Source: Patescibacteria group bacterium
GTDB lineage: Bacteria > Patescibacteriota > Patescibacteriia > Buchananbacterales > UBA6539
Length of the DNA stretch: 64,000 nt
NCBI GenBank assembly: GCA_034003985.1
Contig: JAVEXP010000001.1
Span: 155,347-219,346, forward strand
Direction of reading: 5' to 3'
In this document: one piece after another, positions 3,338 to 33,784 of the stretch
How positions within the stretch are numbered: the stretch's first letter is position 1
How the letters are laid out: every line of letters begins with the position of its first letter
Program-made: the position numbers and the translations under genes
Notes under the pieces: generated by a model
Databases searched by the model: none
The model's input: only the letters and a program-made list of their open reading frames with translations
What the model was told of the DNA's origin: nothing

Positions 3338-4351
3338 TTGTGGTATAATTCAAAAGAAATGACCACTAAAAAATTGCATCAATTCATTGAATATCTGAGT
3401 CAGCAAAATTTGGTTTGGGCGCCTCAGAAACAAAATGGCCAGCTGGTCATTTCTCAAGTCAGCAGTCCTGAAGAGGTCGTTTTAACTAATGAGTTGCCAT
3501 TGCATTCGTTTAAAAAAATATTGGTGCCGCCGCAGGAGGCGCTTTTTAGTTATCAAAGAGGCAGAATCAAGGCTAAAATCGAGTCTCCTTATCAGGTGAT
3601 TTTTGGTTTAACCGTGCCGGATTTGAAGGCCGTAATATATTTGGATCAGGTGTTTGCCAAGGATCCTTACTATCAGGCTCGGCGCAAAAAAACTTTAATC
3701 GTCGGTCATAGCTTGGTGCCGGAAGCGGATTATCAATTTTTCATTGAGAAGTTCAGTGAAGATATTTTAGAGCATTTGAAGTTTGATATTTTTTTGGCCA
3801 TTCAGAAAAACCAGAAAAATTTTATCGTTTATACCGGATCAGAAGACGGTCAGCGGATTTTGGATGATTTTGGCTATAAATTATACGAACACATTGAATA
3901 TGTCGGGCCAATCAAAGAAGAGGGTCCCGACAAACAGATGCTGGAGATTAGAAGAAAGTTTTATGATAATCCGAAAATTTGGCAGGATTTGGCCCAGCGC
4001 TGTATTGAGTGCGGAAAGTGCAGTCTGGTTTGCCCGACTTGTTTTTGTCATGACCTTATTGACCAACCGGAGCTGGGTGAGGGTAACGGCACCAGAAATC
4101 GGCAATGGACCGCTTGCTTTTACGCTAATTTTTCCGCCGTGGCCGGTCGTGAATTGGGTAGCGGCAAGCCAAAATTTTTAAATAATACGGAGCAACGGAT
4201 CAGGTTTTGGTATGAACATAAATTTGTCAGGTCGGTTGACGAATTTGGCATTTCTGGCTGTGTCGGCTGCGGGCGCTGTACCAAAGTCTGTCCGGTGGCA
4301 ATTGACATTAAAAAAACTTTACAAAAAATTTTAAAAGGTGAAATTGAATGA
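3338..4351 (+). CDS. [NiFe] hydrogenase group-3b-like beta subunit (sulfhydrogenase HydB-like), a 4Fe-4S dicluster protein.
   Basis: Two ferredoxin-type Cys motifs (CIECGKCSLVCPTC and CVGCGRCTKVCP). The stop overlaps the start of the gamma subunit (ATGA). Confidence 0.7.
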   Translation: MWYNSKEMTTKKLHQFIEYLSQQNLVWAPQKQNGQLVISQVSSPEEVVLTNELPLHSFKKILVPPQEALFSYQRGRIKAKIESPYQVIFGLTVPDLKAVIYLDQVFAKDPYYQARRKKTLIVGHSLVPEADYQFFIEKFSEDILEHLKFDIFLAIQKNQKNFIVYTGSEDGQRILDDFGYKLYEHIEYVGPIKEEGPDKQMLEIRRKFYDNPKIWQDLAQRCIECGKCSLVCPTCFCHDLIDQPELGEGNGTRNRQWTACFYANFSAVAGRELGSGKPKFLNNTEQRIRFWYEHKFVRSVDEFGISGCVGCGRCTKVCPVAIDIKKTLQKILKGEIE

Positions 4352-5166
4352 TTAATCCGTATTTGCCAAAATTTGTTAAGATTAAGGCAATCCGAACGGA
4401 AACTTCCGACACCAAACTTTTTACTTTTGAGTTTGTTGACGCCAAAGATCGTCGTAATTTTTCTTTTGAACACGGTCAATTTATGATGGCTGGTATGCTT
4501 GGTGAGGGCGAAGCGGCTTTTGATATTTGTTCTTCCCGGGCGGATTTACAAAAATTTGATTTGGCGATTCGCCAAGTCGGGAGATTGACTGCCAAATTGC
4601 ATCAGCTGAAAGTTGGAGATCAAATAACAATCCGTGGGCCGTTTGGCAATGGTTTGCCTTTAAATAACTTCAAGAATCGCGATTTATTATTAATTGGCGG
4701 CGGCTGTGGTTTTATCACCATGAGATCGTTTGCTTTGGATTACTTAGCGGGAAAATTGGATATTGGTAAATTGAATATATTTTACGGTTGCGCCAATGAA
4801 GAACGCTTGCTTTTTAAAAAAGAATATAAAAGCTGGCGCAAAAAGGTTGGCTTGGAAATCGCCTTGGACAAGCCGTCAAAAAATTGGCAAGGTAAAATGG
4901 GGACAATTACTTCTTTGTTTAATTCCAGCCAAGATTTTACTGGTGCCGTGGCATTGATGGTTGGACCGCCGGCGATGTATAAATTTGTAATTGAAGAATT
5001 GCAGGACAGAGGTATTAAAGACGAGGACATTTATTTGTCATTGGAGCGCCGAATGTATTGTGGTATTGGAGTCTGTCAGCACTGCGCCATTGGCCCGTAC
5101 TATGTTTGTAAAGACGGCCCGGTTTTTTCTTGGGCGCAGCTGCGGGGAATTCCTAACGCCATTTAG
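4348..5166 (+). CDS. Hydrogenase gamma subunit: a PyrK-like FAD/NAD(P)-binding oxidoreductase with a C-terminal 2Fe-2S site (sulfhydrogenase HydG-like).
   Basis: FNR-like fold motifs (GDQITIRGPFG and LIGGGCG). C-terminal C-x4-C-x2-C...C cluster motif (CGIGVCQHCAIGPYYVC). Confidence 0.75.
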   Translation: MINPYLPKFVKIKAIRTETSDTKLFTFEFVDAKDRRNFSFEHGQFMMAGMLGEGEAAFDICSSRADLQKFDLAIRQVGRLTAKLHQLKVGDQITIRGPFGNGLPLNNFKNRDLLLIGGGCGFITMRSFALDYLAGKLDIGKLNIFYGCANEERLLFKKEYKSWRKKVGLEIALDKPSKNWQGKMGTITSLFNSSQDFTGAVALMVGPPAMYKFVIEELQDRGIKDEDIYLSLERRMYCGIGVCQHCAIGPYYVCKDGPVFSWAQLRGIPNAI

Positions 5167-6108: not shown

Positions 6109-6312
6109 ATGTGCCTAACAGTACCGCTAGAGGTCACTAAAATCAAAAAACAGACAGCGGAATTGGCTGACGGGCGAGTGGTTAATATCAGTTTGGTCAA
6201 AGATGTTGAGGTTGGTGATTGGATTTTGGTTAATGCTAATTTGGCACTAGCCAAAATCACCGTGGAGGAAGCCAGGGAAATTATTGAGTTGTTAGCAATT
6301 AATAAAAAGTAA
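6109..6312 (+). CDS. hypC: Hydrogenase maturation factor HypC.
   Basis: 67 aa starting MCL, the essential Cys2. MCLTVPLEV...VGDWILVNANLAL...EEA matches HypC/HupF. Confidence 0.85.
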   Translation: MCLTVPLEVTKIKKQTAELADGRVVNISLVKDVEVGDWILVNANLALAKITVEEAREIIELLAINKK

Positions 6313-6315
6313 AAT

Positions 6316-7269
6316 ATGGAAACTAAAACAAAATTATTTAATTTTGAGCGACAGCGGATTGGAATAATATTGGTATTGCTAACCGCCTTAATTTCCGGTG
6401 TGGCTAATTTTTTCAATAAATTTGCCATGCAAATTCTAGCCAAAGATGCTTTTCAATATACTGCTTTGAAAAATATAGTAGTGGCCTTGGGTTTGAGTTT
6501 AATTTTATTGTCACCATTGGTGTTGGGGAAATTAAAAAAAATTCAAAAAACTGACTGGCTTAAATTAATCATCATTGGCTTAATTGGCGGCGGTATTCCG
6601 TTTTTGTTGTTTTTTAAAGGTTTGAGCTTAACCAGCGCGGTCAGCGCCAGTTTTATACACAAAACTTTATTTGCGTGGGTTGCTATTTTAGCCTGGCCAG
6701 TCTTGAAAGAAAAAATAGGTAAATGGCAATTTCTGGCTTTGGGGCTGCTGCTGATTGGCAATTTTGTTTTTTTGGATTTTCGAAATTTGCGCTGGGGAGT
6801 CGCTGAAACCATGATTTTAATTGCCACCATTATGTGGGCGATGGAAACAATCGTTGTTAAGGCTACTTTAGCAAAAGTCGAACCAATAGTGGCGGCCTGG
6901 GCGAGGATGTTTTTTGGCTCAATATTTTTGTTTGGCTGGTTAATAATGACTAATAATGTCACTGGTTTGGGACAATTAGATTTAGACCAATTAAGCTGGC
7001 TAGTGGGCGTAGGCGTGTTGCTGTTGGGCTATGTAATTACTTGGTATAGCGGATTGAAACGATTATCCGCCCTAACAACCGCCAGTATTTTGGTTTTAGC
7101 TTCACCAATTACGACATTATTAAATTCAATATTTGTCAGTCATAGTTTCTCGGTTCAGAATTTTTGGAGCAGTTTGATTATTGCCTTCGGTGTTTCGGGC
7201 TTCATCGCCTTGGGATTTAAACAAAACAGTAAATCCAGTTATCAAATATTAGAAAACAGTAAATCGTGA
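6316..7269 (+). CDS. EamA/DMT-superfamily membrane transporter.
   Basis: About 10 predicted transmembrane helices, with the two-repeat architecture typical of EamA. Confidence 0.6.
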   Translation: METKTKLFNFERQRIGIILVLLTALISGVANFFNKFAMQILAKDAFQYTALKNIVVALGLSLILLSPLVLGKLKKIQKTDWLKLIIIGLIGGGIPFLLFFKGLSLTSAVSASFIHKTLFAWVAILAWPVLKEKIGKWQFLALGLLLIGNFVFLDFRNLRWGVAETMILIATIMWAMETIVVKATLAKVEPIVAAWARMFFGSIFLFGWLIMTNNVTGLGQLDLDQLSWLVGVGVLLLGYVITWYSGLKRLSALTTASILVLASPITTLLNSIFVSHSFSVQNFWSSLIIAFGVSGFIALGFKQNSKSSYQILENSKS

Positions 7270-8081
7270 TGTTGTTAAACGACCAAAAATTGGCCGGGGC
7301 TTTACTGGCGGCGCGCTATGCCTTTATGCCTAACCGTTTGAAATATTGCGGACCGGATAATAATGCGGAATTGTTTGGTTATCTTGCCAATCAAACCGCT
7401 GATTTGGGTTTAAAGGAGATGCTCCAGGAATTTCAAACAATGTTTCCTTATTTAAAGTTGATTGCCGAAGCAAACCATATTGCCGATCCGTTCAACTATC
7501 GGGTGGTTGAAGCTTATTGGATTGGTAATGAACTATTGGAGAAAGTCAGGATACAAAATTTTTATCGTTATCTGGTTGATGGCCAGCAATTGAAGAAAAA
7601 GTTTAAATTAAGTTCTTTGGAAAAACTTTTTGGCAAGATTCCTTTGGGCGCCAAGCCGCACCACAGTTTTCATGTTTTAAATGTTCCGAAGCGAACCGGG
7701 TATTATCCGGTTGAACATACTTTAAAAACCATCAACGCTTGTATTATCACGCCGGCGAAAATCAAGCGCTTGAATCTTGAATCATGTTCGGCTGAAGGTC
7801 GGGTTAAAAAAATCAAAGAGCAACGAAATATTTTAAAAAAGATTATGGTTGAAGCCAGGCCATTGGTGGCTGAGGGTAATTGCCTGGAAATCGGTGAAGC
7901 CAGGGAGCAGGAAGTTTTTGTTGAATCTAATAATCAGGCCTTGGTCAAAGGATTTAAAGTTGGTGATGATGTGGCATTGCATTGGAATTGGGTTTGTGAT
8001 TTATTGACGCCAAGCCAGGCTGAAAATTTGTTGAAGTGGAATAATTATAATTTAAAATTGCTTAATCTGAATTATGCCTAA
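7266..8081 (+). CDS. Hypothetical protein, translationally coupled to the hydrogenase small subunit. Possibly a hydrogenase accessory protein.
   Basis: 271 aa. Its start overlaps the EamA stop and its end overlaps the start of the delta subunit. No known motif recognised. Confidence 0.45.
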   Translation: MMLLNDQKLAGALLAARYAFMPNRLKYCGPDNNAELFGYLANQTADLGLKEMLQEFQTMFPYLKLIAEANHIADPFNYRVVEAYWIGNELLEKVRIQNFYRYLVDGQQLKKKFKLSSLEKLFGKIPLGAKPHHSFHVLNVPKRTGYYPVEHTLKTINACIITPAKIKRLNLESCSAEGRVKKIKEQRNILKKIMVEARPLVAEGNCLEIGEAREQEVFVESNNQALVKGFKVGDDVALHWNWVCDLLTPSQAENLLKWNNYNLKLLNLNYA

Positions 8082-8898
8082 AAAAATTAAAAAACCAAGG
8101 GTGGCAATCGTTGGACTAACTTGTTGCGAGGGCTGTGAATTTGCAATTTTGGATTTGGGTCAGAGGTTTTTGGAACTAGCCAAGTATGTTGAGTTAGTCG
8201 AGTTTCGGATGATAAAAGACGATCCGCCAAAACCCGGACCTTATGATATCTGTTTTGTGGAAGGTTCGGCAGTAACCAAAAAGAATGTTGAGATTTTAAA
8301 AGAACTGCGGCGGGTGTCCAAAAAGCTGATTGTGCTAGGCAACTGCGCTCATACCGGCGGAATTCATCGGATGAAGAATTGGATTGGACGAGTTCAGGCA
8401 TTGGGGCAAGTATACGATAAGCCCCGGGGGATTGATAACCCGCCGATTGTACCGATTGCCGAAATTGTCAAAGTGGATTTTACCATCCCGGCTTGTCCGA
8501 TTAACGCCGAAGAATTTTTAATTATTGTAAAACAATTGTTGGCCGGGCGGGAGCCGTTTATTCCCCAAAATCCGGTTTGTTTCGAATGCCAGATTAACGG
8601 TTATGAGTGTTTGCTACAGCAAGGCGAACTTTGTTGCGGGCCAATCACTTTGGGCGGTTGCCAGGCTGTTTGTCTAAAAAGCAAACAGCCATGCTGGGGT
8701 TGCCGAGGTTTACTTGAAGAACCGGATGTTGATAAGTTTGTCCGTAATTGTTTTTTGACCGGTCATACTATTGAAGAAATTGAAAAAGTTTTGGAGGTGT
8801 TTGGAGTTAAAGATGACTGGATTGATCAGGCCAAACAAGAATGGCAATCGCTTCAAAAATCAAAAGCCTTAATTAAGATAACCGGGAAAGAAAAATAA
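8074..8898 (+). CDS. [NiFe] hydrogenase small subunit, group 3 (delta/HydD-like).
   Basis: Proximal FeS cluster motif VAIVGLTCCEGCEF, GNCAHTGG, and further C-rich motifs (CFECQINGYEC and CQAVC). Confidence 0.8.
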   Translation: MPKKIKKPRVAIVGLTCCEGCEFAILDLGQRFLELAKYVELVEFRMIKDDPPKPGPYDICFVEGSAVTKKNVEILKELRRVSKKLIVLGNCAHTGGIHRMKNWIGRVQALGQVYDKPRGIDNPPIVPIAEIVKVDFTIPACPINAEEFLIIVKQLLAGREPFIPQNPVCFECQINGYECLLQQGELCCGPITLGGCQAVCLKSKQPCWGCRGLLEEPDVDKFVRNCFLTGHTIEEIEKVLEVFGVKDDWIDQAKQEWQSLQKSKALIKITGKEK

Positions 8899-8906
8899 TT
8901 AAAATT

Positions 8907-9512
8907 ATGGAATGTTCAAAATGTAAAACTAACAATGATGACAAATCAAAGGTTTGTCGAATTTGCGGCGCTGATTTAACGATGGTGCCGGCCGCAATTG
9001 ATTTCAAGGCGGGAACTGAATCAAGCTCGGCGGCGGAAAAATATCAAGGGTTGGGTGGGTGGCTAATACTGGTAGGGCTAGGTTTAATTAGCGCTCCCTT
9101 AATGATTGGCTGGGCGTTGTATCAAGATTTTTTGCCGCTGGTTTTGGAGTCCCAGGTCTGGCAGACTTTAACTTCTCCAGGCAGTCTGATTTACAGTTCA
9201 TTGTGGAAGCCAACCTTAATGATGGAGGTAACCGTTAACATTATATTTTTTGTTTGGACAATATATCTGCTGGTTTTATTTTTCAGGAAGAGCGCGCATT
9301 TTCCTAAATTGTATATAATTTTTTTGGCGGTGAATTTATTATTTTTAATGATCGACGATATTTTACTTTTTCAGATCAGGCGCCAATTACCGATTCTGGG
9401 TCAGACTGTTGGTGAACAAAAATTTAGTTCATTGTCAGCGGTTTTGCCAACAGTTATTTGGATACCATATATGCTGAATTCCAAAAGAGTAAAACAAACT
9501 TTTGTTAATTAA
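8907..9512 (+). CDS. Membrane protein with an N-terminal zinc ribbon (CxxC...CxxC) and 4-5 transmembrane helices.
   Basis: MECSKCKT...VCRICGADL followed by hydrophobic helices. Sits between the small and large hydrogenase subunit genes. Confidence 0.5.
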   Translation: MECSKCKTNNDDKSKVCRICGADLTMVPAAIDFKAGTESSSAAEKYQGLGGWLILVGLGLISAPLMIGWALYQDFLPLVLESQVWQTLTSPGSLIYSSLWKPTLMMEVTVNIIFFVWTIYLLVLFFRKSAHFPKLYIIFLAVNLLFLMIDDILLFQIRRQLPILGQTVGEQKFSSLSAVLPTVIWIPYMLNSKRVKQTFVN

Positions 9513-9518
9513 TCATTT

Positions 9519-10805
9519 ATGAAGATTAGAATTGATCATTTGGAAAAAATGGAGGGTCACCTGGATTTTGTCGGTGATATTTTGGCTGGTGATGTCGCCA
9601 GCGCCAAAATAAAAACGACGGAAGGAATCAGGCTGATTGAGAGTATTTTGGTTGGTCGCAAGTATTATGACGCGCCAATCATTACGGCCAGAATTTGCGG
9701 GATTTGTCCGGTAGTTCATTCGTTGAATATGATTAAGACAGTCGAAAATGCTTTTGGCATTAAACCCAGTCAGCAGACTATTAAATTGCGGAAACTAATG
9801 GAGTTCTCACAAGTCATTCACAGCCATGCTTTACATTTGTATTTTTTGTCGATGCCGGATTTTTACGGAGTAAGAGATGATATTGACTTTATTAAACAAA
9901 ATCCAACCCAAGCCTCGGCGGCTATCAAAATTAGGGAATTTGCTTTGAAGATTTTGGAGGTGGTAGCCGGTCGGGCTATTCATCCAATTGCCTGCGAAGT
10001 CGGCGGCTTTAAAATTTTGCCCAGCCAGGAACAACTTAAAGAATTGTTGAGGAATTATAAAGAAACAATGGTCGCCGCGATGGAATTGATGGTGTTTGCG
10101 GCCAGATTGCCCTTGCCGCAGTTTGAACGCCGGATGGAATTTGCCAGTTTGTATTCGCCGGATGAATATGCGATTTATGACGGTCGGATAAAATTTTTGG
10201 ACGGCAAGATTATTAAGTCCAGTAAGTATGCCAAGGTAATAGATGAATATCAGTTGCTGGCGTCAGCAGCGAAGCGAGCAAATTATCAAGGTAAAAGCTA
10301 TATGGTAGGCGCTTTGGCCAGGCTTAATATTAATCATGACAAGTTGAGCAAGGAAGCCGCCGCCGTAGTTAAAGATTTAAAATTGAAATTTCCAATTTAT
10401 AATACCTTTGCCAATGTTTTGGCCCAAGCGATTGAAGTGGTTCATGCTATGCAAGAAGCCGGTAATTTACTGAGTGATTTGGCCGATAATTTGAAATTTG
10501 AAGAAAGCCGGGGCCATAATTTGGCTTTGATTGCCGATGCTAATCCCCAAGGTAGAGTTACGGTTGGCTATTCGGTAATGGAAGCGCCGCGGGGGATATT
10601 ATATGACATGGTAGAAATAAATGCCGATGGAGTAATCACTAGATCGGATATCATTACGCCGACCGTTCAATATTTAAACAATATCGAGGAGGATTTAAAA
10701 GTTTATTTGCCCAATTTAAAACAGTTATCAGACCGCCAGCGGCGGCAAAAAATTAAGACTTTAATCAGAGCTTACGATCCTTGTATTTCGTGTGCTACCC
10801 ATTAA
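9519..10805 (+). CDS. [NiFe] hydrogenase large subunit, group 3. It ends exactly at the DPCxxCxxH motif with no C-terminal extension.
   Basis: N-terminal L1 motif RICGICPVVHSL. C-terminal L2 motif DPCISCATH is immediately followed by a stop. Confidence 0.9.
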   Translation: MKIRIDHLEKMEGHLDFVGDILAGDVASAKIKTTEGIRLIESILVGRKYYDAPIITARICGICPVVHSLNMIKTVENAFGIKPSQQTIKLRKLMEFSQVIHSHALHLYFLSMPDFYGVRDDIDFIKQNPTQASAAIKIREFALKILEVVAGRAIHPIACEVGGFKILPSQEQLKELLRNYKETMVAAMELMVFAARLPLPQFERRMEFASLYSPDEYAIYDGRIKFLDGKIIKSSKYAKVIDEYQLLASAAKRANYQGKSYMVGALARLNINHDKLSKEAAAVVKDLKLKFPIYNTFANVLAQAIEVVHAMQEAGNLLSDLADNLKFEESRGHNLALIADANPQGRVTVGYSVMEAPRGILYDMVEINADGVITRSDIITPTVQYLNNIEEDLKVYLPNLKQLSDRQRRQKIKTLIRAYDPCISCATH

Positions 10806-12039
10806 TATGATTGATAATCTATTCTTTTTGATTATTTTAATTCTAGTTTCCGCTTTTTTCTCCGCTTCGGAAATCGCGATTTTTTCTTTGTCGCAAGCTA
10901 AAATAAAATCCTTAGAGAAAAAGAAAGTCCGTAACGCCAAGCAACTGGCGGCTTTGCGCGCTAAACCTCAGCGGTTATTAATTAATATTTTGATTGGCAA
11001 TAATTTGGTTAATATCGGTGCCTCGTCGATGGCGGCCGTGATCGCCTGGCAAATTTTTGGCAATATCGGTCCGGCGATTGCCACTGCTGTTTTAACGATT
11101 TTAATTTTGGTTTTTGGTGAAATTGGTCCCAAGACTTTGGCTTCGGCCAATGCCGAAAGGTTTTCTTTGGCAATCGCGCCGATTTTAACTTTGATTGATA
11201 TTATTTTTCGCCCGGTTTCCATTTGGTTTGAGTTTTTTAACAAACTGGCAATTAAATATCTGGCCGGCGGCCGGGCTCGACCGTCAATGACCGAAGAGGA
11301 ATTGACTGCTTTGGCCGAAATCGGCGCGGAAGAAGGAGTGGTTGAACCAAAAGAAAAAGAAATGATTAAACGGATTTTGGAATTCAATGATATTAATGCT
11401 GAGGATGTAATGAGGGTTAGGAGTGATATTTTTGCCTTGCCTCAGAATTTAACACTGAGACAGGCTTTGTCTGAAATTAATGAAGCTCATTATTCCCGCG
11501 TGCCAATTTTTGAGAGAACTATCGACAATATTACGGGGGTGATTTACCTGCCAGACATTCTTCGAGAATTGACCGCCGGTAATGATGATTTGCCAATTTT
11601 GAAGATTTCTCGCAAACCTTATTTTATTCCATTACAAAGGAAAATCGATGACATTTTTAAGGATTTTCAGCGCCGCCACAATCATATTGCAATCGTTCTG
11701 GACGGCCAGGGCAATACCGCCGGACTGGTGACTTTGGAGGATTTGTTAGAAGAGATTGTCGGGGAAATTATGGATGAGTCTGATGTGGACGAATCATTGA
11801 TAAAGCGAATTGACAAGAAAGCAATTTTGGTTGATGCTCAAACAGAAATTAGAAATATTAATAATTTTTTCAATATCAATATCCCCGGCCAGCCTCATGA
11901 CTTTGTGGCCGAAGCTTTTCTGGAAAAATTTGGACGAATTCCCAAACCGGGGGACGAGGCTTTGTTTGAAAATTTTAAAATGGTAATTGAAAAAGCGACT
12001 AAGAAAAAAATTGAAAAGATAAGAATAATTAAATTTTAA
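10792..12039 (+). CDS. HlyC/CorC (CNNM) family transporter-associated protein: DUF21 membrane domain, CBS pair and CorC_HlyC domain.
   Basis: 4-TM N-terminus with a conserved GExxPK motif, CBS domains, and a C-terminal transporter-associated domain. Confidence 0.8.
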   Translation: MLPINMIDNLFFLIILILVSAFFSASEIAIFSLSQAKIKSLEKKKVRNAKQLAALRAKPQRLLINILIGNNLVNIGASSMAAVIAWQIFGNIGPAIATAVLTILILVFGEIGPKTLASANAERFSLAIAPILTLIDIIFRPVSIWFEFFNKLAIKYLAGGRARPSMTEEELTALAEIGAEEGVVEPKEKEMIKRILEFNDINAEDVMRVRSDIFALPQNLTLRQALSEINEAHYSRVPIFERTIDNITGVIYLPDILRELTAGNDDLPILKISRKPYFIPLQRKIDDIFKDFQRRHNHIAIVLDGQGNTAGLVTLEDLLEEIVGEIMDESDVDESLIKRIDKKAILVDAQTEIRNINNFFNINIPGQPHDFVAEAFLEKFGRIPKPGDEALFENFKMVIEKATKKKIEKIRIIKF

Positions 12040-12040
12040 T

Positions 12041-12301
12041 ATGCACGATTTGCACGCGGCTGATCAAATTCTAAAATTGGTTTTAGCTCAAGCCAATGAT
12101 CACGGATTATTGAGGGTGAAAAGTATTGTTGTTGAACTTGGCAGTATGATTGAACATGGTGAAGAGATAAATCCGGACAATCTAACTTTTAATCTTAAAT
12201 TGTTGGCCAAAAATACCCCAGCCGAAGCCATGGCAGTAACAATCAACAAAGTTCAAGGGGGTAATTGGAAGCTGGTGGAAATTGAAGGAGACAATAATTG
12301 A
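12041..12301 (+). CDS. hypA: HypA-like hydrogenase nickel-insertion protein, truncated. The N-terminal Ni-binding domain (MHD...) is present but the C-terminal CxxC/CxxC zinc finger is absent.
   Basis: MHDLHAADQILKLVLAQANDHGLLRVKSIVVELGSMIEHGEEINPDNLTFNLKLLAKNTPAEAMAVTI aligns with the HypA N-terminal domain. The protein is 86 aa with no cysteines. Confidence 0.6.
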   Translation: MHDLHAADQILKLVLAQANDHGLLRVKSIVVELGSMIEHGEEINPDNLTFNLKLLAKNTPAEAMAVTINKVQGGNWKLVEIEGDNN

Positions 12302-13305
12302 TAATTAAGATGGAAGAAGAGAAAATAGAACAACCAGATCAAACCGCTGATTTGTCTAACCAGTCCGACTATTGGGATGATTATACCAGGCAAATGCGAT
12401 CTCATAATATTGGGGTGGTTGAAAGAGATGGTGGTTTTTATGTTGATACGCCCGAAGGTGAGGCGGCAGTCAGGCTGCCCGTCAGTCATGAGGCAATGCT
12501 GGATCAGGCCGAACGGGTCGGTCAAAGGGAGAGTTTAGTTAAAGCCCGTTTGACTAGCGAACAAGCTCCGCTGGCAGCTTGGGTTCAGGAAGGACGAAAG
12601 CAGATGGAACAAAATCAGTCGGCTTTTGCTGAGGCAAAAAACGCCGAGGATATTATGAGGGAATTAACCAGGCAAGGTAATTTATTGGTAGCTGAAAATA
12701 TTGTCGGTAAACTTAGGGGTTTTCCTGATCAGGCGAAAAGGTTTGTGATCCCGTCGAATGTTATTTCCGAAGTTGCTTCGGCTTTTGAGAAGTTGGGATA
12801 TTATGTTAAGAGGGTGTCGGGCAAAGGCATTTTTGTCCAAGGCGATTTTGCCGCTTACGCGTTTTTAAACGCTGACAAAGTTGAACAAGGAAATTTAGCA
12901 GAAGAAATGATTGATGATGATGGTGACGATGCGGGTGATGGGTCGTCGGGGCGGGACGGAAAGAAAGGAAAACCAACACAAGCGATGAAAGGAAAGTTGG
13001 GACCGAAATCATTTGGGCAGGGAGGTAAAGTTGGTGGTTTGGCAAAAGGTACTGGTAAACATGCCAACGGCCCAGTATCTTTAAGGAAACCGGGGGAGGC
13101 TGATGTTAATATTGGAAATGAGCCATTGGTAATTACCGAAACGGTGGTACCGATGACGGCGCTGTCTTCGCAGCCAAATATTACTTCCCATACCAAAACG
13201 GCAACGAGTCCAGAAGTCGCCGCTTCTCAACCAAGTGTGTCAAGTGGCACTAATTCGGCCGGCGGCGGAATGCCAACTGTCACTCCCGGTCCGGGCGCGG
13301 GCTAA
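12298..13305 (+). CDS. Hypothetical protein with an acidic patch (DDDGDDAGDG) and a Gly/Lys-rich, low-complexity C-terminal half.
   Basis: 335 aa ORF with no recognisable domain. Confidence 0.4.
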   Translation: MIIKMEEEKIEQPDQTADLSNQSDYWDDYTRQMRSHNIGVVERDGGFYVDTPEGEAAVRLPVSHEAMLDQAERVGQRESLVKARLTSEQAPLAAWVQEGRKQMEQNQSAFAEAKNAEDIMRELTRQGNLLVAENIVGKLRGFPDQAKRFVIPSNVISEVASAFEKLGYYVKRVSGKGIFVQGDFAAYAFLNADKVEQGNLAEEMIDDDGDDAGDGSSGRDGKKGKPTQAMKGKLGPKSFGQGGKVGGLAKGTGKHANGPVSLRKPGEADVNIGNEPLVITETVVPMTALSSQPNITSHTKTATSPEVAASQPSVSSGTNSAGGGMPTVTPGPGAG

Positions 13306-16660: not shown

Positions 16661-18241
16661 ATGCCTAATCATAAAAAAAATAATACCCATAAGCCGTTAG
16701 TATTTCTGATCCTTGACGGCTGGGGGATTGCTCCAAAGAGCCCGGCTAACGCCATTGAACTTGCCAAAAAACCAAATTTTGATTATTTGTGGAACAACTA
16801 TTCCCATACCAAACTTCAAGCATCGGGAAAATATGTCGGTTTACCCGATGATCAGCCTGGCAATTCCGAAGCCGGTCATATGAATATCGGCGCGGGGCGG
16901 GTGGTTGAACAGGATTCGGTGACGATTTCCAAGGCCATTAATACCGGAAAATTTTTTAAGAATCCGGCGTTTGAGGCCGCTTGTACTCATCTTCGGAAGA
17001 ATAAATCGAATTTGCATATTATGGGAATGCTTTCTGATGGTCAAAGCGCTCACAGCGACCCCGATCATTTATTGGCGCTGATTGCCTGGGCGCGAATGAA
17101 AAAAATCAGAAATGTTTATTTACATTTGTTTACTGACGGTCGTGATTCGCCGCCACATTCAGCACTGAAATCAGTCGAGGCCTTGATGCGACAGTTGAAA
17201 AATAAGGAGCAGGGCAGTCAGCGCAGCGGCGAGTGGATTGCCACAATCATGGGGCGATTTTACGCAATGGATCGGAAAAAGGCTTGGCCCCGGACGGAGC
17301 GGGCTTATCAGGCGATGGTTTTGGCCAGGGGCATTGGTGCCAAGAGTCCTCAGGCGGCAATTACCCAGTCTTATAATCGGGGCGAGACGGATGAATTTAT
17401 TCCGCCCTATGTCATGAAACGGGGAGGCAAACCAATCGCCAAAATCAAAGACGGCGACGCAATTTTATTTTTTAATTTACGGAGCGATCGGGCGCGCCAG
17501 TTAGCCAAACCGTTTGTCCAGCAAAATTTTACCGAAGACAATTCCAACAGCTTCAAGCGCCAGAAGGTTTTAAAAAATATTGTCTTTGTGGCCATGACCG
17601 ATTTCGGTCCTGATCTTGATTCGATTTTAACGGCTTTCCCATCTGATGATATCGTCGGCACTTTACCGATGGCATTAGCCGGCTATAAGCAGCTTTATAT
17701 TTCCGAAAAAGAAAAATACGCCCATGTAACTTATTTTATTAACGGCGGTTATCCTGATCCGGTGGCCGGTGAGAACAGAATATCAAAACCATCGCCGGAA
17801 GTGGCATCTTATGATCAAAAACCGGAAATGAGTGTTTATCAAGTGACTGCTGAAGTTTTGCGAGATTTGGATAAATATGATTTTATCGCCATTAATTTTG
17901 CCAATCCTGATATGGTTGGCCATACTGGGAACATTAAAGCGGCGATCAAAGCCGTTGAAGCCTGTGACAAGTGTTTGGGTAAAATAAAAGACAAAGTTCT
18001 ATCGCGTCGGGGGATATTGGTGATTACGGCTGATCACGGTAATGCCGATAAGATGCTGGACTTGGAAACCGCTGAAATGTATACTGAACATACTACCAAT
18101 CCGGTGCCTTTTATTATCGTTGAGCCAAAAAAAATTAGTCGGCGCTTGAAAAGAGGAAAATTGGGTGATATCGCGCCGACCATTTTAAAATTAATGAAAG
18201 TCAAAAAACCTAAACAAATGACTGGTAAACCTTTGTTTTAA
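16661..18241 (+). CDS. gpmI: 2,3-bisphosphoglycerate-independent phosphoglycerate mutase (iPGM), copy 1.
   Basis: LVFLILDGWGIAP, MGRFYAMDRKKAW, NFANPDMVGHTG and ITADHGNAD motifs. Confidence 0.9.
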   Translation: MPNHKKNNTHKPLVFLILDGWGIAPKSPANAIELAKKPNFDYLWNNYSHTKLQASGKYVGLPDDQPGNSEAGHMNIGAGRVVEQDSVTISKAINTGKFFKNPAFEAACTHLRKNKSNLHIMGMLSDGQSAHSDPDHLLALIAWARMKKIRNVYLHLFTDGRDSPPHSALKSVEALMRQLKNKEQGSQRSGEWIATIMGRFYAMDRKKAWPRTERAYQAMVLARGIGAKSPQAAITQSYNRGETDEFIPPYVMKRGGKPIAKIKDGDAILFFNLRSDRARQLAKPFVQQNFTEDNSNSFKRQKVLKNIVFVAMTDFGPDLDSILTAFPSDDIVGTLPMALAGYKQLYISEKEKYAHVTYFINGGYPDPVAGENRISKPSPEVASYDQKPEMSVYQVTAEVLRDLDKYDFIAINFANPDMVGHTGNIKAAIKAVEACDKCLGKIKDKVLSRRGILVITADHGNADKMLDLETAEMYTEHTTNPVPFIIVEPKKISRRLKRGKLGDIAPTILKLMKVKKPKQMTGKPLF

Positions 18242-18242
18242 T

Positions 18243-19829
18243 ATGGCTAATCAACAGATAAAACCGATAATGCTATTGATTCTCGACGGTTTTGGTGTTG
18301 CCCCGCCAAGTAATAGTAACGCGGTTTCTTTAGGTAAGAAACCGGTTTTGGATTATTTTATTGCCAATTATCCGACTTTGACATTGCAGGCATCGGGCGA
18401 AGCGGTTGGGTTGTCTTGGGGAGAAATGGGTAATTCGGAGGTCTGTCATCTTAATTTGGGTTCGGGGCAGATAATTTATCAGACTTTGCCGAAAATCAAC
18501 AAGTCAATTGAAGACGGGACGATCAAAAAAAATGATAAACTATTGAAAGCAATCGACCACGCCAAAAAAAATAAGTCAAAGCTTCATTTGATGGGGTTGG
18601 TGTCAAACGGCGGGGTACATTCTCATCATGATCATCTATATGCTTTATTGGAAATGTGCAAGGAACGGGGAGCCGGTGAAGTCTATATTCACGCTTTTTT
18701 GGACGGCCGCGACACGGCCAAAGACGGTGCCAAGGAATTTATCAAGTCGCTTCAAGCCAAGTTGACTGAAATGAAGTTTGGTCAAATTGCCAGCTTGAGC
18801 GGACGATATTATGCTATGGATCGCGATAATAATTGGGAGCGAGAAGAAAAAGCTTACCGGGCGATTGCTTTGGGGGATTCACCGGCCAAGTTTGATGATC
18901 CGGTCAAAGCGATTGAAACCTCATATGGTAATCAGGTGTTTGATGAGGAATTTATTCCGGCGGTGATTACCCGCGGCGGCAAGCCGGTGGCAACAGTCAA
19001 CGATAATGACGCGATGATATTTTTTAATTTTCGGGCTGATCGAGCCAGACAGTTGGCCGCGGTGTTTGCGGTTCCAGGATTTGATAAATTCGCCAAGCCG
19101 GCAGTCAAAAATTTTCAACTAACTACCTTTACTGAATACGAAAAGGATCTGCCGGTTGATGTAGCTTATCCCGATGAAGACATTCAGCTGCCACTGGCAA
19201 AACTTTTTTCGAATTTGAAACTAAAACAGCTCCATGCGGCCGAAACGGAAAAATACGCCCATGTTACTTTTTTCTTCAATGGTCGCAAAGAAGACCCGTT
19301 TGAAGGTGAGGATCGGATTTTGGTGCCGTCTCCGGCGGTTTCCAGTTATGATCAAAAACCGGAAATGAGCGTTAACGAATTAACGGCTAAGCTCCTTAAA
19401 GCAATTAAAACTAATCAGCATCATTTATATATTGTTAATTTTGCCAACCCGGATATGGTCGGACATACTGGCGTAATCCCCGCAGCTGTCAAGGCCGTTC
19501 AAGCCGTTGATAAAGCCATCGGCCAGCTTTGGGATGCTATGTCACAAGTCGGAGGAACGCTGATGATTACGGCCGACCACGGCAATTGCGACGAAATGAT
19601 TAATCTTCAAACGGGAGAAGTTTCCAAAGAACATAGCACTAACCCGGTGCCTTTTATTGTGGTTGGTGAACAATGGAAAGGCAAGAGCTTGGTTTCGGGG
19701 TTGGATAGTGCTAACGGTGATTTGAGTGTTTTGACGCCCTCGGGAATTTTGGCTGATATTTCGCCGACCATTCTAAAACTATTAGAGATTGACCAACCCT
19801 CGGACATGACCGGCAGTCCGCTGGTTTAA
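18243..19829 (+). CDS. gpmI: 2,3-bisphosphoglycerate-independent phosphoglycerate mutase (iPGM), copy 2. A tandem paralog.
   Basis: IMLLILDGFGVAP, SGRYYAMDRDNNW, NFANPDMVGHTG and ITADHGNCD motifs. Diverged from copy 1. Confidence 0.9.
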   Translation: MANQQIKPIMLLILDGFGVAPPSNSNAVSLGKKPVLDYFIANYPTLTLQASGEAVGLSWGEMGNSEVCHLNLGSGQIIYQTLPKINKSIEDGTIKKNDKLLKAIDHAKKNKSKLHLMGLVSNGGVHSHHDHLYALLEMCKERGAGEVYIHAFLDGRDTAKDGAKEFIKSLQAKLTEMKFGQIASLSGRYYAMDRDNNWEREEKAYRAIALGDSPAKFDDPVKAIETSYGNQVFDEEFIPAVITRGGKPVATVNDNDAMIFFNFRADRARQLAAVFAVPGFDKFAKPAVKNFQLTTFTEYEKDLPVDVAYPDEDIQLPLAKLFSNLKLKQLHAAETEKYAHVTFFFNGRKEDPFEGEDRILVPSPAVSSYDQKPEMSVNELTAKLLKAIKTNQHHLYIVNFANPDMVGHTGVIPAAVKAVQAVDKAIGQLWDAMSQVGGTLMITADHGNCDEMINLQTGEVSKEHSTNPVPFIVVGEQWKGKSLVSGLDSANGDLSVLTPSGILADISPTILKLLEIDQPSDMTGSPLV

Positions 19830-23822: not shown

Positions 23823-24827
23823 ATGATTAAGAAAATCGGAATTGATTTGGGAACCATGAACTCTTTGGTCTATGTGCCAAAGAGGGGAATTGTAATTAAT
23901 GAACCATCGGTAGTGGCGGTGTCGATAGTTGATAAAAAAATTTTGGCAGTAGGAGTAGAAGCCAAAGAAATGTTGGGTCGAACTCCCGATACGATTATTG
24001 CGGTTCGGCCAATGCGCGACGGCGTAATTGCTGACTATAAGATAACCGCGGCAATGCTGCGCTATTTTGTAAATAAATCATTGGGTGGCGTTAGGTTGTT
24101 TAGGCCGGAAGTGATGGTGGCCGTGCCGGCCGGTATTACTTCGACTGAACGGCGGGCGGTGATTGACGCGACAATTGCGGCCGGCGCCAAAGCCGCTTAT
24201 ATTATCAAGGAACCAATCGTCGCGGCGATTGGCGCCGGTATTCCCATTGGTTCACCATCAGGACACATGATCATTGATATCGGCGGTGGAACTTCGGAAA
24301 TGGCGGTTATTTCGCTGGGTGGGATTGTGGCCTCAACCTCGGTGCGAGTAGGCGGCAACCGTTTTGACAGTGCGATTGCTGAATATATCAGACGGAAATA
24401 TAATTTGGCAATCGGCGAACGAACGGCCGAACGAATTAAGATTGACATTGGTTCGGCCATGTATATGGAAGAGCGTTTAACCAGCGAAGTCAGAGGGCGC
24501 GATGTTGTGACTGGCTTGCCGCGAACAATTAGTGTTAGTTCGGACGACATTACTGATGCCATCCAAGTTGAACTGGAAGGAATAATCCAAGCTGTTAAAG
24601 ATGTTTTACATAAAACCCCACCGGAGCTTTCAGCCGATGTGATTGACAAAGGCATTATTATGTCCGGCGGTTCAAGTTTGTTGCGCAATATTGATCAGTT
24701 GATTACTCAGGTTACCGGCGTACCGGCTTATATTGCTGATGAAGCTTTATTCTGCGTCGCCAAAGGCACGGGAATAGCTTTGGAAAATTTGGAGTCTTAC
24801 AAACGAAGCATTCTGGCAATCAAGTAG
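23823..24827 (+). CDS. mreB: MreB/Mbl-family actin-like protein, paralog 1.
   Basis: IGIDLGTMNSLVYV, DIGGGTSE and an actin-fold ATPase motif pattern. Confidence 0.85.
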   Translation: MIKKIGIDLGTMNSLVYVPKRGIVINEPSVVAVSIVDKKILAVGVEAKEMLGRTPDTIIAVRPMRDGVIADYKITAAMLRYFVNKSLGGVRLFRPEVMVAVPAGITSTERRAVIDATIAAGAKAAYIIKEPIVAAIGAGIPIGSPSGHMIIDIGGGTSEMAVISLGGIVASTSVRVGGNRFDSAIAEYIRRKYNLAIGERTAERIKIDIGSAMYMEERLTSEVRGRDVVTGLPRTISVSSDDITDAIQVELEGIIQAVKDVLHKTPPELSADVIDKGIIMSGGSSLLRNIDQLITQVTGVPAYIADEALFCVAKGTGIALENLESYKRSILAIK

Positions 24828-32725: not shown

Positions 32726-33784
32726 ATGTTTAATCGACTATTTAAAAAGTTTTCTCGAGATGTCGGTATTGATCTGGGGACTTCCAATACCCTGATTTAT
32801 GTTAAAGATCGAGGTATTGTGGTGAACGAATCATCAATCGTGGCGGTCAATAATCGTAACGATCAGATTTTGGCGGTCGGCGAAGAAGCTCAGAAAATGT
32901 TGGGCAAAACGCCGCCGCACATTACAATTTCCAAGCCGTTGGTGGACGGAATAATTTCGGATTTTGAGGTGACGGAAAAGATGCTTAAATATTTTATCGA
33001 CCGATTGTATAAAGAAAGTTTTGGTTTATCGCCCCGGCCGCGAGTGGTTATCGGAGTACCGTTGGATGTGACGGAGGTGGAAAAAAAGGCGGTGGAGGAT
33101 GTGGTTTTGTCGGCCGGTGCCCGTGATGTTTATTTGGTGGAAAATGTGATTGCTACGGCGATTGGCGCCAGACTGCCCATTCAGGATCCGTCAGGGAGTA
33201 TGGTCGTTGATTTGGGCGGTGGCATTACGGAGATTGCGGTCATTTCGCTTTCCGGAGTGGTAGCTTGGAAATCGTTGCGGATTGCCGGTAATAAGATGAA
33301 TCAGGATATTATGGGTTTTGCGCGAAGCGAATTTAATTTGTTGGTTGGGGAACGAGTAGCCGAGGAAATAAAAATTCAAGCCAGCCGTCTAGTTGACAGT
33401 CAAGAACCTCTTGAATTAAGAATGCGTGGTCGTGATTTGATGACCGGCCTGCCCAAAGAAGTAATTGTAACAACTTCCCAAATTAAGCAATCAATGCAGC
33501 GTTCGGTTTTGGGGATTATTGAAGGTATTAAGAGTACGCTGGAAATAACCCCGCCAGAATTGGTGGCCGATATTTACCAGCGCGGCATGATTTTAGCCGG
33601 CGGCGGAGCATTATTGAGCGGTTTGGACAAGATGATTGCCCAGGCCACTCGGATTCCGGTAAAAATAATCGAAGATTCTTTAACCTGTTCGGTTCGGGGC
33701 ATGGGTTTGATTTTGGAAGACGAGAATTTATTGCGGGAAGTGGCCATCCCTTCGTCCACTCAGGAAGAGAAGACTTCGCGTTAG
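32726..33784 (+). CDS. mreB: Rod shape-determining protein MreB, paralog 2, heading the mreBCD-mrdA cluster.
   Basis: VGIDLGTSNTLIYV, DLGGGITE and actin-fold motifs. Confidence 0.9.
   Translation: MFNRLFKKFSRDVGIDLGTSNTLIYVKDRGIVVNESSIVAVNNRNDQILAVGEEAQKMLGKTPPHITISKPLVDGIISDFEVTEKMLKYFIDRLYKESFGLSPRPRVVIGVPLDVTEVEKKAVEDVVLSAGARDVYLVENVIATAIGARLPIQDPSGSMVVDLGGGITEIAVISLSGVVAWKSLRIAGNKMNQDIMGFARSEFNLLVGERVAEEIKIQASRLVDSQEPLELRMRGRDLMTGLPKEVIVTTSQIKQSMQRSVLGIIEGIKSTLEITPPELVADIYQRGMILAGGGALLSGLDKMIAQATRIPVKIIEDSLTCSVRGMGLILEDENLLREVAIPSSTQEEKTSR

What the first reader, a model, noticed from the sequence alone, without database searches (positions are those of the whole stretch)
12041..12301. 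HypA-like protein lacking the C-terminal zinc-finger domain
The 86-aa protein aligns along the HypA N-terminal nickel-binding domain (MHD N-terminus, the ...RVKSIVVELGSM... core). It stops before the CxxC-(12-13)-CxxC zinc module that all canonical HypA/HybF proteins have, and it contains no cysteines at all. This is a natural minimal HypA. The zinc domain is thought to mediate HypB/SlyD interaction and structural switching, so the case is informative.
Basis: partly seen in the sequence, partly recalled or inferred. Interest (0 to 1): 0.55.

Follow-up and report, generated by a model that had tools for sequence, protein, structure and literature searches.

The report
Zinc-free mini HypA nickel chaperone
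This 86-residue gene next to a [NiFe] hydrogenase is a real, conserved, zinc-finger-less version of the nickel chaperone HypA. It is found across many Patescibacteria (ultra-small bacteria), so it is a natural test of what the "universal" HypA zinc domain, and possibly the partner GTPase HypB, are needed for.

Summary

It is not a C-terminal truncation. The zinc module is missing internally, between Q72 and G73, and the canonical last β-strand (WKLVEIEG) is kept, so this is the complete nickel domain.

It is neither an artefact nor split. At least 80 species-level Patescibacteria genomes carry it at 84-86 aa. It lies downstream of a group-3b-like large subunit gene in 82 of 86 loci, under purifying selection (median dN/dS 0.25). 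No zinc-finger ORF was found nearby.

Clade-specific invariants are M1-H2-D3, H5 and a 4-residue loop insertion carrying E38-H39-G40. Relatives without H5 carry His-rich expansions of that loop.

No HypB was found in 86 hydrogenase loci or in five further CPR hyp clusters. All 82 large subunits whose C-terminus could be read lack the C-terminal extension. HypF is the short form in all six CPR hypCDE clusters.

Best reading: a streamlined nickel inserter that probably works without HypB. Zinc-free 80-aa HypAs also occur outside this group, one of them next to hypB. New variant of a known kind.

The parts
12041..12301 (+). mini-HypA: 86-aa, cysteine-free HypA nickel domain with no zinc module
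12041..12055 (+). N-terminal M1-H2-D3-L4-H5: the MHE-type nickel-binding motif (here MHD) plus an extra invariant His5
   Evidence: M1, H2, D3 and H5 are present in all 81 readable sequences of 82 unique (the other is masked). In canonical HypA the N-terminal amine, His2 and Glu3 bind Ni (PMC5557546; PMC7055735).
12149..12160 (+). Four-residue insertion I37-E38-H39-G40 in the β1-α2 loop, absent from canonical HypA; proposed extra nickel ligands
   Evidence: It appears as a gap in all zinc-bearing HypAs in alignment A2 and in 18 of 18. E38 and H39 are invariant in 82 of 82 and G40 in 79 of 82. The same loop supplies Asp40 to the H. pylori HypA Ni site. The loop expands to 2-6 His only in relatives lacking H5.
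12254..12259 (+). Junction Q72|G73, where canonical HypAs carry the 33-45-residue CxxC...CxxC zinc module
   Evidence: Alignment A2. Relatives P0136 and P0137 carry cysteine-free insertions within the domain (P0136 at the junction; P0137 in the β1-α2 loop and near the junction).
12266..12295 (+). C-terminal β-strand W76-N85, homologous to the last strand of canonical HypA that follows the zinc module
   Evidence: AF2 strand 76-85. Alignment A2. W76, L78, I81 and G83 are conserved.
9519..10805 (+). [NiFe] hydrogenase large subunit (group-3b-like), the presumed client; it ends ...DPCISCATH-stop with no C-terminal extension
   Evidence: Pfam NiFeSe_Hases and NCBIfam sulfhydrogenase alpha. A large-subunit gene lies in 83 of 86 loci, and on the same strand upstream of mini-HypA in 82. 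All 82 large subunits whose C-terminus could be read end CxxCxxH-stop.
10792..12039 (+). CNNM/CBS/CorC-type divalent-cation transporter, translationally coupled between the large subunit and mini-HypA
   Evidence: Pfam CNNM, CBS and CorC_HlyC. Its stop codon ends 1 nt before the hypA ATG. The same arrangement occurs in 5 of 86 loci.
8074..8898 (+). Hydrogenase small (delta) subunit
   Evidence: Pfam Oxidored_q6 and NCBIfam ShyD/HydD. Present in 72 of 86 loci.
6109..6312 (+). HypC (67 aa, MCLTVP...), the iron-cofactor chaperone; the only other canonical Hyp gene in the 64-kb window
   Evidence: ORF. Homologues annotated PF01455 in L001-L005. Present in 46 of 86 loci. No HypB, D, E or F anywhere in the window.
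7266..8081 (+). DUF6390 protein, a conserved operon member with a HypC-like C-terminal β-domain and invariant Cys/His residues
   Evidence: Pfam DUF6390 183 bits. Present in 40 of 86 loci. Alignment A3 invariants. AF2 model and Foldseek hits to HypC chains at probability 0.90-0.95.
3338..5166 (+). Hydrogenase beta (4Fe-4S) and gamma (FAD/NAD) subunits of the group-3b-type enzyme
   Evidence: Pfam Fer4_22; NAD_binding_1 with DHODB_Fe-S_bind. Present in 50 and 53 of 86 loci.

Best explanation
The gene encodes a zinc-free HypA ('mini-HypA'). It is the complete nickel-binding α/β domain of the hydrogenase nickel chaperone, with a tight turn where canonical HypAs carry the zinc-ribbon module.

Proposed mechanism, with shown and inferred steps marked:
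1. Nickel binding (inferred from homology). The free N-terminus binds Ni(II) through the Met1 amine, His2 and Asp3, as in canonical MHE HypAs.
2. Extra ligands (inferred). The clade-specific invariant residues His5 (one helical turn after His2) and Glu38-His39 complete a pre-formed site. They sit in a 4-residue insertion in the loop that supplies Asp40 in H. pylori HypA. This site would replace the ligand (His98) that T. kodakarensis HypA recruits from its zinc-domain region only after HypB binds.
3. Delivery (genomic coupling shown, mechanism inferred). The protein docks on the immature large subunit encoded immediately upstream and hands nickel to the active-site cysteines after HypC has delivered Fe(CN)2CO.
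4. No proteolytic step (the sequence feature is shown, the consequence inferred). These large subunits end exactly at CxxCxxH, so no endopeptidase proofreading step follows.
5. HypB independence (inferred from absence in all neighbourhoods). The system most likely works without a HypB NTPase and takes nickel from the cytosolic pool. In some genomes a CbiM- or CNNM-type transporter encoded in the same operon may feed that pool.
For: Homology and fold:
- Pfam HypA hit above the gathering score; PDB profile hit to TkHypA.
- AF2 pLDDT 88 with topology α-β-α-β-β.
- The top 14 Foldseek hits are all HypA.

Architecture:
- Zinc module absent internally, last strand retained.

Reality and constraint:
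- Lengths are 84-86 aa in 80 of 86 loci; 0 of 86 have CxxC; 83 of 86 have no cysteine.
- Median dN/dS 0.25 over 531 pairs.

Nickel-site residues:
- M1, H2, D3 and H5 are present in all 81 readable sequences; E38, H39, N47 and N51 are invariant in all 82; G40 is in 79 of 82.
- All 180 sequences with H5 have exactly one His in a 12-residue loop. Loops with 2-6 His occur only where H5 is missing.
- Literature: Ni ligands are the Met1 amine, His2, Glu3 and Asp40 in HpHypA (PMC5557546). In the TkHypA-HypB complex His98 closes onto the MHE motif to form a nanomolar site, and the HyhL N-terminal tail contacts the HypA Ni site (PMC7055735).

Client coupling:
- A large-subunit gene lies in 83 of 86 loci, on the same strand 1-4552 bp upstream in 82. 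All 82 readable ones end CxxCxxH-stop.

HypB:
- 0 of 86 hydrogenase loci and 0 of 5 further CPR hypCDE(F) clusters.
- In L055, L095 and L096 hypA, C, D, E and short F are clustered with the structural genes, still without hypB.
- No recurring Walker-A NTPase of any kind in 91 CPR loci.

Metal transport genes in the operon:
- CbiM in 10 of 86 loci and CNNM in 5 of 86.
Against: - No biochemistry exists; nickel binding and transfer are inferred from homology.
- The protein fails NCBIfam's HypA equivalog cut-offs (37 vs 146 bits; 30.3 vs 88.1), so it is a divergent member.
- I could not obtain model coordinates, so the spatial proximity of H2, H5, E38 and H39 is argued from topology and literature, not measured.
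- The link between H5 and loop histidines is not corrected for phylogeny. For example, 15 near-identical P0153-cluster members inflate the counts.
- Genome-wide absence of HypB was not tested; only ±10 kb neighbourhoods were. In this window's own genome hypD, E and F are also outside the 64 kb, so hypB could be elsewhere too.
- A zinc-free 80-aa HypA sits directly beside hypB in L006, so losing the zinc module does not by itself imply HypB independence.
Confidence: 0.6

Rival explanations
1. Ordinary HypB-dependent HypA that has simply lost a dispensable zinc module. HypB is encoded elsewhere in these genomes and loads mini-HypA with nickel as in E. coli, H. pylori or archaea.
For: A zinc-free 80-aa HypA lies directly upstream of hypB in a complete hypABFCDE operon (L006/L007), so zinc-free HypAs can coexist with HypB. 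In the window's genome hypD, E and F are also outside the 64 kb examined, so absence nearby proves little for this genome. Literature places the HypB contact partly on the nickel domain: HypB's N-terminal residues bind HypA (PMC3287977).
Against: 0 of 86 hydrogenase loci and 0 of 5 further CPR hypCDE(F) clusters contain hypB, even where every other hyp gene is consolidated in about 10 kb (L055, L095, L096). No recurring P-loop NTPase appears in 91 loci. Omnitrophota L088 and locus L092 have hypA followed directly by hypF where L006 has hypB between them.
Confidence: 0.28
2. A HypA-derived protein that no longer carries nickel. It would act as a large-subunit-specific assembly or holding chaperone that keeps the active site open, with nickel entering spontaneously.
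For: Very tight linkage to the large subunit gene (82 of 86 loci). It fails the HypA equivalog thresholds. High nickel can bypass HypA/HypB in model organisms (PMC12134894).
Against: The nickel-binding N-terminus M1-H2-(D/E)3 is conserved in all 81 readable sequences. The additional invariant positions are typical metal ligands (His5, Glu38, His39). Sister lineages expand the same loop into His-rich tracts. This pattern is hard to explain without metal binding.
Confidence: 0.08
3. Assembly or annotation artefact: a frameshifted or truncated hypA pseudogene, or a split gene whose zinc finger is encoded separately.
For: Only the short length. The window also holds a zinc-ribbon ORF in the hydrogenase cluster (8907-9512, CxxC-x10-CxxC).
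Against: The same 84-86-aa ORF occurs in at least 80 independent genomes with dN/dS well below 1. The C-terminal strand is in frame and conserved. No zinc-module similarity in any frame of the window or 87 loci (best E 0.044). The zinc-ribbon-DUF2569 gene is found in 1 of 86 loci only.
Confidence: 0.01

Closest known systems
Canonical HypA/HybF nickel metallochaperone (Pfam PF01155; structures 3A43 T. kodakarensis, 6G81/2KDX H. pylori)
   Different: No CxxC...CxxC zinc module and no cysteine at all. MHD instead of MHE. An invariant His5. A 4-residue loop insertion with invariant Glu-His-Gly. 86 aa against 110-140 aa. No hypB neighbour. A 2019 review states that all HypA proteins have a zinc site with two CXXC motifs (PMC7055735).
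80-aa zinc-free 'MHE' HypAs outside Patescibacteria (e.g. Candidatus Omnitrophota MFH1459065.1 = P0233; metagenomic P0180)
   Same: They also lack the zinc module at the same junction and retain the last strand. They sit in hyp operons next to hydrogenases.
   Different: They keep MHE and lack both the E-H-G loop insertion and His5 (29 of 31 without the insertion). By sequence several are nearest to zinc-bearing HypAs, which suggests separate losses. One type is adjacent to hypB (L006); others are not.
T. kodakarensis HypA-HypB(AT) nickel acquisition cycle
   Same: Likely the same end point: a high-affinity site made of the N-terminal amine, His2 and one more histidine, then delivery to the large subunit's N-terminal region.
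   Different: There the extra histidine (His98) comes from the zinc-domain region and is positioned only when the ATPase HypB binds. Here the candidate extra histidines (His5, His39) are built into the nickel domain, and no NTPase partner is found nearby.
His-rich nickel-binding extensions of accessory proteins (HypB N-terminal His stretch, UreE and SlyD C-terminal tails)
   Same: Sister lineages of mini-HypA expand the β1-α2 loop into His/Asp/Glu-rich tracts, e.g. HIDESHAGHDHHSLHE. This composition resembles the His-rich nickel-binding tail described for K. aerogenes UreE.
   Different: Here the tract is an internal loop of HypA itself. The window's protein carries only the minimal version (IEHGEE).

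Membership tests
HypA/HybF (PF01155, TIGR00100) | Sequence match to the family model above the curated threshold | tested here: inconclusive
   Passes the Pfam gathering score (33.7 vs 28.9 bits, N-terminal 69 of 112 model positions). Fails all NCBIfam HypA cut-offs (37 vs 146; 30.3 vs 88.1).
HypA/HybF (PF01155, TIGR00100) | N-terminal Met-His-Glu nickel-binding motif at residues 1-3 | tested here: met
   MHD at residues 1-3 with no possible upstream start. M1, H2 and D3 are present in all 81 readable orthologues. Glu is conservatively replaced by Asp.
HypA/HybF (PF01155, TIGR00100) | Nickel-domain α/β fold (two helices, three-stranded sheet, the last strand coming from the C-terminus) | tested here: met
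HypA/HybF (PF01155, TIGR00100) | Zinc-binding CxxC-x(n)-CxxC module | tested here: not met
   No cysteine in the protein. The module is absent between Q72 and G73. 0 of 86 orthologues have CxxC. No separate zinc-module ORF. It is therefore filed as a zinc-free HypA-like variant, not a canonical HypA.
HypA/HybF (PF01155, TIGR00100) | Genomic association with [NiFe] hydrogenase structural and hyp genes | tested here: met
   Downstream of the large subunit gene on the same strand in 82 of 86 loci; HypC in 46 of 86. Clustered with hypC, D, E and F in L055, L095 and L096.
HypA/HybF (PF01155, TIGR00100) | Binds Ni(II) and is required for nickel insertion into the large subunit | not testable with these tools
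   Needs ITC or XAS and genetic or in vitro maturation assays.
HypA/HybF (PF01155, TIGR00100) | Works with a HypB NTPase partner | tested here: inconclusive
   No hypB within ±10 kb in 86 + 5 CPR loci and no recurring Walker-A protein. Whole genomes could not be searched.

The most novel reading that the evidence does not exclude
Mini-HypA is a self-sufficient nickel insertase that needs no HypB. His5 and the inserted Glu38-His39 give the isolated nickel domain a constitutive high-affinity site. Together with HypC, HypD, HypE, a short HypF and a large subunit without a cleavable tail, Patescibacteria would then run the smallest known [NiFe]-hydrogenase maturation pathway: no zinc domain, no NTPase and no protease.
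Probability: 0.35. Interest if true: 0.72.

Novelty: new variant of a known kind. Interest (0 to 1): 0.55.

Why it matters
Reviews of nickel trafficking describe every HypA as a two-metal protein with a nickel site and a Cys4 zinc site. The role of the zinc domain (structural, regulatory or partner-binding) is still debated.

A large clade under purifying selection that has dispensed with the zinc domain is a natural deletion experiment, especially as zinc-free forms appear in several lineages. It shows the nickel domain alone is a viable unit. It also points to specific compensating residues (His5, Glu38-His39, His-rich loop expansions) that can be mutated.

If the pathway also lacks HypB and the endopeptidase, it defines a minimal gene set for maturing a [NiFe] hydrogenase. 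That is relevant to heterologous hydrogenase expression and to how ultra-small, nickel-limited cells allocate metals.

It also matters for annotation. Equivalog models miss these proteins, so pipelines that require them could wrongly report hydrogenase maturation as incomplete in Patescibacteria.

Tried and rejected
- Frameshift or split gene: rejected by a six-frame CxxC scan and tblastn with canonical zinc modules.
- The zinc-ribbon N-terminus of the DUF2569 membrane protein (8907-9512) as a detached HypA zinc finger: rejected, because the gene is present in only 1 of 86 loci.
- The downstream 335-aa ORF (12298-13305) as a partner: no Pfam hit, and unique to this window.
- HypB, D, E or F elsewhere in the 64-kb window: none.
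- Metagenome scan with a single CPR HypD to collect more hyp clusters: nothing found, because the patterns chosen were not conserved. Replaced by a protein search plus contig look-ups.
- AFDB Foldseek library: not available.
- The two PNAS structure papers (HypAB and HyhL-HypA): not held. Their content was taken from reviews instead.
- Literature searches for a zinc-free HypA, or for HypA in Patescibacteria or the candidate phyla radiation: no paper describes it. A further search also returned nothing relevant.
- Measuring H2/H5/H39 distances in the AF2 model: not possible, because coordinates are not exposed.

Full report
**1. The observation**

The window holds an 86-codon ORF at 12041-12301 on the + strand. 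Its ATG is the only possible start: an in-frame TAA lies four codons upstream, so the protein begins M-H-D. It contains no cysteine.

It matches Pfam HypA (PF01155) at 33.7 bits, above the gathering score of 28.9. The match covers residues 1-73 against model positions 1-69 of 112. It falls far below NCBIfam's HypA equivalog cut-offs (37 vs 146 bits and 30.3 vs 88.1). A profile of the family finds T. kodakarensis HypA (3A43) among solved structures at E = 3e-6.

**2. A whole nickel domain, not a truncation**

Alignment with zinc-bearing HypAs (A2) shows otherwise.
- Residues 1-72 align with the canonical N-terminal part.
- The 33-45-residue stretch carrying both CxxC motifs is a clean gap.
- Residues 73-84 (GGNWKLVEIEGD) align with the canonical C-terminal strand (G-x-E-L-x-V-x-S-I-E-I-E).

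The AlphaFold model (pLDDT 88.3, pTM 0.75) has helix 4-20, strand 23-33, helix 45-55, strand 65-70 and strand 76-85.
- The top 14 Foldseek hits against the PDB are all HypA. Alignments that span the whole target, with a gap for the zinc domain, give TM 0.86. Alignments of only the first 70 columns give 0.70.

Relative to canonical HypAs there is also a 4-residue insertion, I37-E38-H39-G40, in the loop between strand 1 and helix 2.

**3. Not an artefact and not split**

- The homologue search returned 88 clusters, nearly all 84-86 aa.
- The profile search of 1.84 billion representatives gave 234 hits at E <= 1e-3. Most of the best 150 listed are 77-95 aa with no CxxC pair. Canonical 111-143-aa HypAs appear only from E of about 1e-6 and align over the first 70 positions only.
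The loci with informative labels are from Patescibacteria: Buchanan-, Falkow-, Kuenen-, Uhr- and Komeilibacteria, and Parcubacteria.
- In 86 loci, 85 start MHD and the other is masked. Eighty are 84-86 aa, 83 have no cysteine, and none has CxxC.
- Pairwise dN/dS has a median of 0.25 over 531 unsaturated pairs, and 0.007-0.14 for the six closest pairs.
- A six-frame scan of the whole window finds only three CxxC-x(8-32)-CxxC motifs, at 75-155, 8913-8966 and 60072-60155. tblastn with 12 canonical zinc modules against the window and all loci gives a best E of 0.044.
- The zinc ribbon at 8913-8966 belongs to a DUF2569 membrane protein found in 1 of 86 loci only. It is not a detached HypA finger.

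**4. Context**

The gene closes a group-3b-like hydrogenase cluster:

| Coordinates | Gene |
|---|---|
| 3338-4351 | beta subunit |
| 4348-5166 | gamma subunit |
| 6109-6312 | HypC |
| 6316-7269 | EamA transporter |
| 7266-8081 | DUF6390 |
| 8074-8898 | small subunit |
| 9519-10805 | large subunit |
| 10792-12039 | CNNM/CorC-type cation transporter |
| 12041-12301 | mini-HypA, starting 1 nt after the CNNM stop |

Across the 86 loci:
- The large subunit gene is present in 83, and lies on the same strand 1-4552 bp upstream of mini-HypA in 82.
- The small subunit is in 72, HypC in 46, DUF6390 in 40, CbiM in 10 and CNNM in 5.
- All 82 large subunits whose C-terminus could be read end at CxxCxxH-stop. 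They therefore lack the C-terminal peptide that an endopeptidase removes after nickel insertion in most hydrogenases (background: PMC12134894).
- The rest of the 64-kb window is housekeeping, with no HypB, D, E or F.

**5. The rest of the maturation machinery**

Patescibacteria do carry hypC, D and E, and usually a short HypF of 367-397 aa that has only the Kae1-like domains.
- L055 (Buchananbacteria) has short hypF, hypE, hypD, hypC, the hydrogenase, CNNM and mini-hypA in one cluster.
- The top hits of a HypD search include several named Patescibacteria, Moran-/Moraniibacteria, Falkowbacteria or Parcubacteria; most carry no name.
- L093, L094 and L097 are hypC-D-E plus short hypF clusters.
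- L095 (Moraniibacteriota) and L096 (Parcubacteria) consolidate hypC, D, E, short F, the small and large subunits, a desulfoferrodoxin and a 90-aa zinc-free MHD HypA within about 10 kb.
- hypB was found in none of the 86 hydrogenase loci or the 5 further clusters by tblastn.
- A Walker-A scan of all ORFs of at least 120 aa in 91 CPR loci finds no recurring NTPase. The only 12-locus cluster is phosphoglycerate mutase, a chance match to the motif.
- Genome-wide absence of HypB could not be tested.

**6. Residues that suggest how it works**

In 82 unique orthologues M1, H2, D3 and H5 are present in every readable sequence. G34, E38, H39, N47 and N51 are invariant, and A7, L33, G40, F50, I81 and G83 are nearly so.

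Literature background:
- In H. pylori HypA the nickel ligands are the Met1 amine, the His2 side chain and amide, and probably Glu3 and Asp40. Asp40 lies in the strand 1 to helix 2 loop (PMC5557546).
- In T. kodakarensis, binding of the ATPase HypB moves His98 onto the MHE motif and creates a nanomolar site (PMC7055735).
- The large subunit's N-terminal tail contacts the HypA nickel site (PMC7055735).

Mini-HypA has no His98 region. It does have His5, one helical turn after His2, and an inserted Glu-His in the Asp40 loop.

Across MHD-type sequences, all 180 with His5 have exactly one His in a 12-residue loop. Among the 48 without His5, 30 have 2-6 His in loops of up to 39 residues, for example HIDESHAGHDHHSLHE. 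This pattern is not corrected for phylogeny. It is what one expects if His5 and the loop serve the same metal site.

I therefore infer a pre-formed, partner-independent nickel site. This step is inference, not shown.

**7. Zinc-free HypAs elsewhere**

About 30 representatives are 77-84-aa 'MHE' HypAs without the loop insertion. Several are closest in sequence to zinc-bearing HypAs, which suggests separate losses of the zinc module. Their contexts vary:
- hypA-hypB-hypF-hypC-hypD-hypE next to a HoxH-type enzyme (L006);
- hypA-short hypF-hypC-hypD-hypE next to an Mrp/Mbh cluster in Omnitrophota (L088);
- hypA-hypF-hypC (L092);
- two tandem copies (L089);
- an orphan copy (L091).

The zinc module is therefore dispensable in several lineages, both with and without an adjacent hypB.

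**8. Comparison with what is known, and novelty**

By sequence and fold this is a homologue of the HypA nickel domain. It lacks one defining feature of the family, the Cys4 zinc site. I therefore file it as a zinc-free HypA-like variant rather than a canonical HypA.

[quoted passage not shown] A 2025 review describes the same two-domain picture (PMC12134894).

Six full-text searches found no paper describing a zinc-free HypA or HypA in Patescibacteria. Databases already auto-name these proteins HypA, so the gene is known but its architecture and implications apparently are not.

**9. Verdict**

It is a new variant of a known kind and is of moderate interest. It would become more interesting if HypB independence is confirmed.

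Noticed in passing
window 7266-8081 (+): DUF6390 is a conserved member of the hydrogenase operon (40 of 86 CPR loci) and belongs to a family of more than 3200 clusters. It has invariant Cys/His residues (C28, H133, H136, C159, H239, C244). The AF2 model (pLDDT 79) shows a helical N-domain plus a C-terminal β-domain that resembles HypC: Foldseek probability 0.90-0.95 to 2z1c, 3vyu and 3vyt, though E-values are about 0.1-0.3, and BLASTP against the window's HypC gives E = 0.009. No paper mentions it. It may be an uncharacterised maturation factor.
   Followed up: partly
window 9519-10805 (+); 82 related loci: Every large subunit linked to mini-HypA ends exactly at CxxCxxH-stop. None has a C-terminal extension, which implies maturation without the usual endopeptidase step.
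   Followed up: yes
L055:1436-2563; L093-L097; L088:8233-9435: HypF in these Patescibacteria and in an Omnitrophota MAG is a short form of 367-400 aa. It has only the Kae1-like C-terminal domains and lacks the acylphosphatase, zinc-finger and YrdC domains. It co-occurs with zinc-free HypA. Three other CPR loci (L065, L071, L072) have full-length HypF.
   Followed up: partly
window 10792-12039 (+): A CNNM/CBS/CorC-type cation transporter overlaps the end of the large subunit gene and stops 1 nt before hypA. The same insertion occurs in 5 of 86 loci, and a CbiM nickel/cobalt permease component lies in the operon in 10 of 86. Metal-transport genes have been recruited repeatedly to this operon.
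   Followed up: partly
window 8907-9512 (+): A membrane protein with an N-terminal zinc ribbon (CxxC-x10-CxxC) fused to DUF2569 sits between the small and large subunit genes. It is unique to this genome among 86 loci; other genomes have an unrelated 81-89-aa membrane ORF there.
   Followed up: yes
L089:128-370 and 515-757; L006:8001-8243; L088:8001-8243: 80-aa zinc-free 'MHE' HypAs exist outside Patescibacteria. They include a tandem pair, one directly upstream of hypB, and one in an Omnitrophota hyp operon without hypB.
   Followed up: partly
window 38139-39371 (-): There is a strong match to the FadL/TodX outer-membrane transporter family (PF03349, 150 bits) plus an OMP β-barrel hit. The genome is attributed to Patescibacteria, which to my knowledge are generally thought to lack an outer membrane.
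   Followed up: no
L003:11573-12937; L005:11573-12937: An Avd-like gene (PF22296) and a reverse transcriptase (RVT_1) lie just downstream of mini-hypA in some Buchananbacteria contigs. This pairing is the signature of a diversity-generating retroelement.
   Followed up: no
L095:18765-19139; L096:15851-16225: A desulfoferrodoxin gene is inserted between the large subunit and the zinc-free hypA in Moraniibacteriota and Parcubacteria clusters. It may provide oxygen protection during maturation.
   Followed up: no
window 16661-18241 and 18243-19829; 23823-24827 and 32726-33784: Two tandem cofactor-independent phosphoglycerate mutase paralogues and two MreB paralogues occur in a small genome. The iPGM pair is conserved downstream of the hydrogenase cluster in related contigs.
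   Followed up: no
loci L010, L012, L017, L019, L021 and others: Many TPA_asm MAG records that carry this Patescibacteria-type locus are titled 'uncultured Gammaproteobacteria bacterium'. This looks like placeholder or wrong taxonomy in the public records.
   Followed up: no
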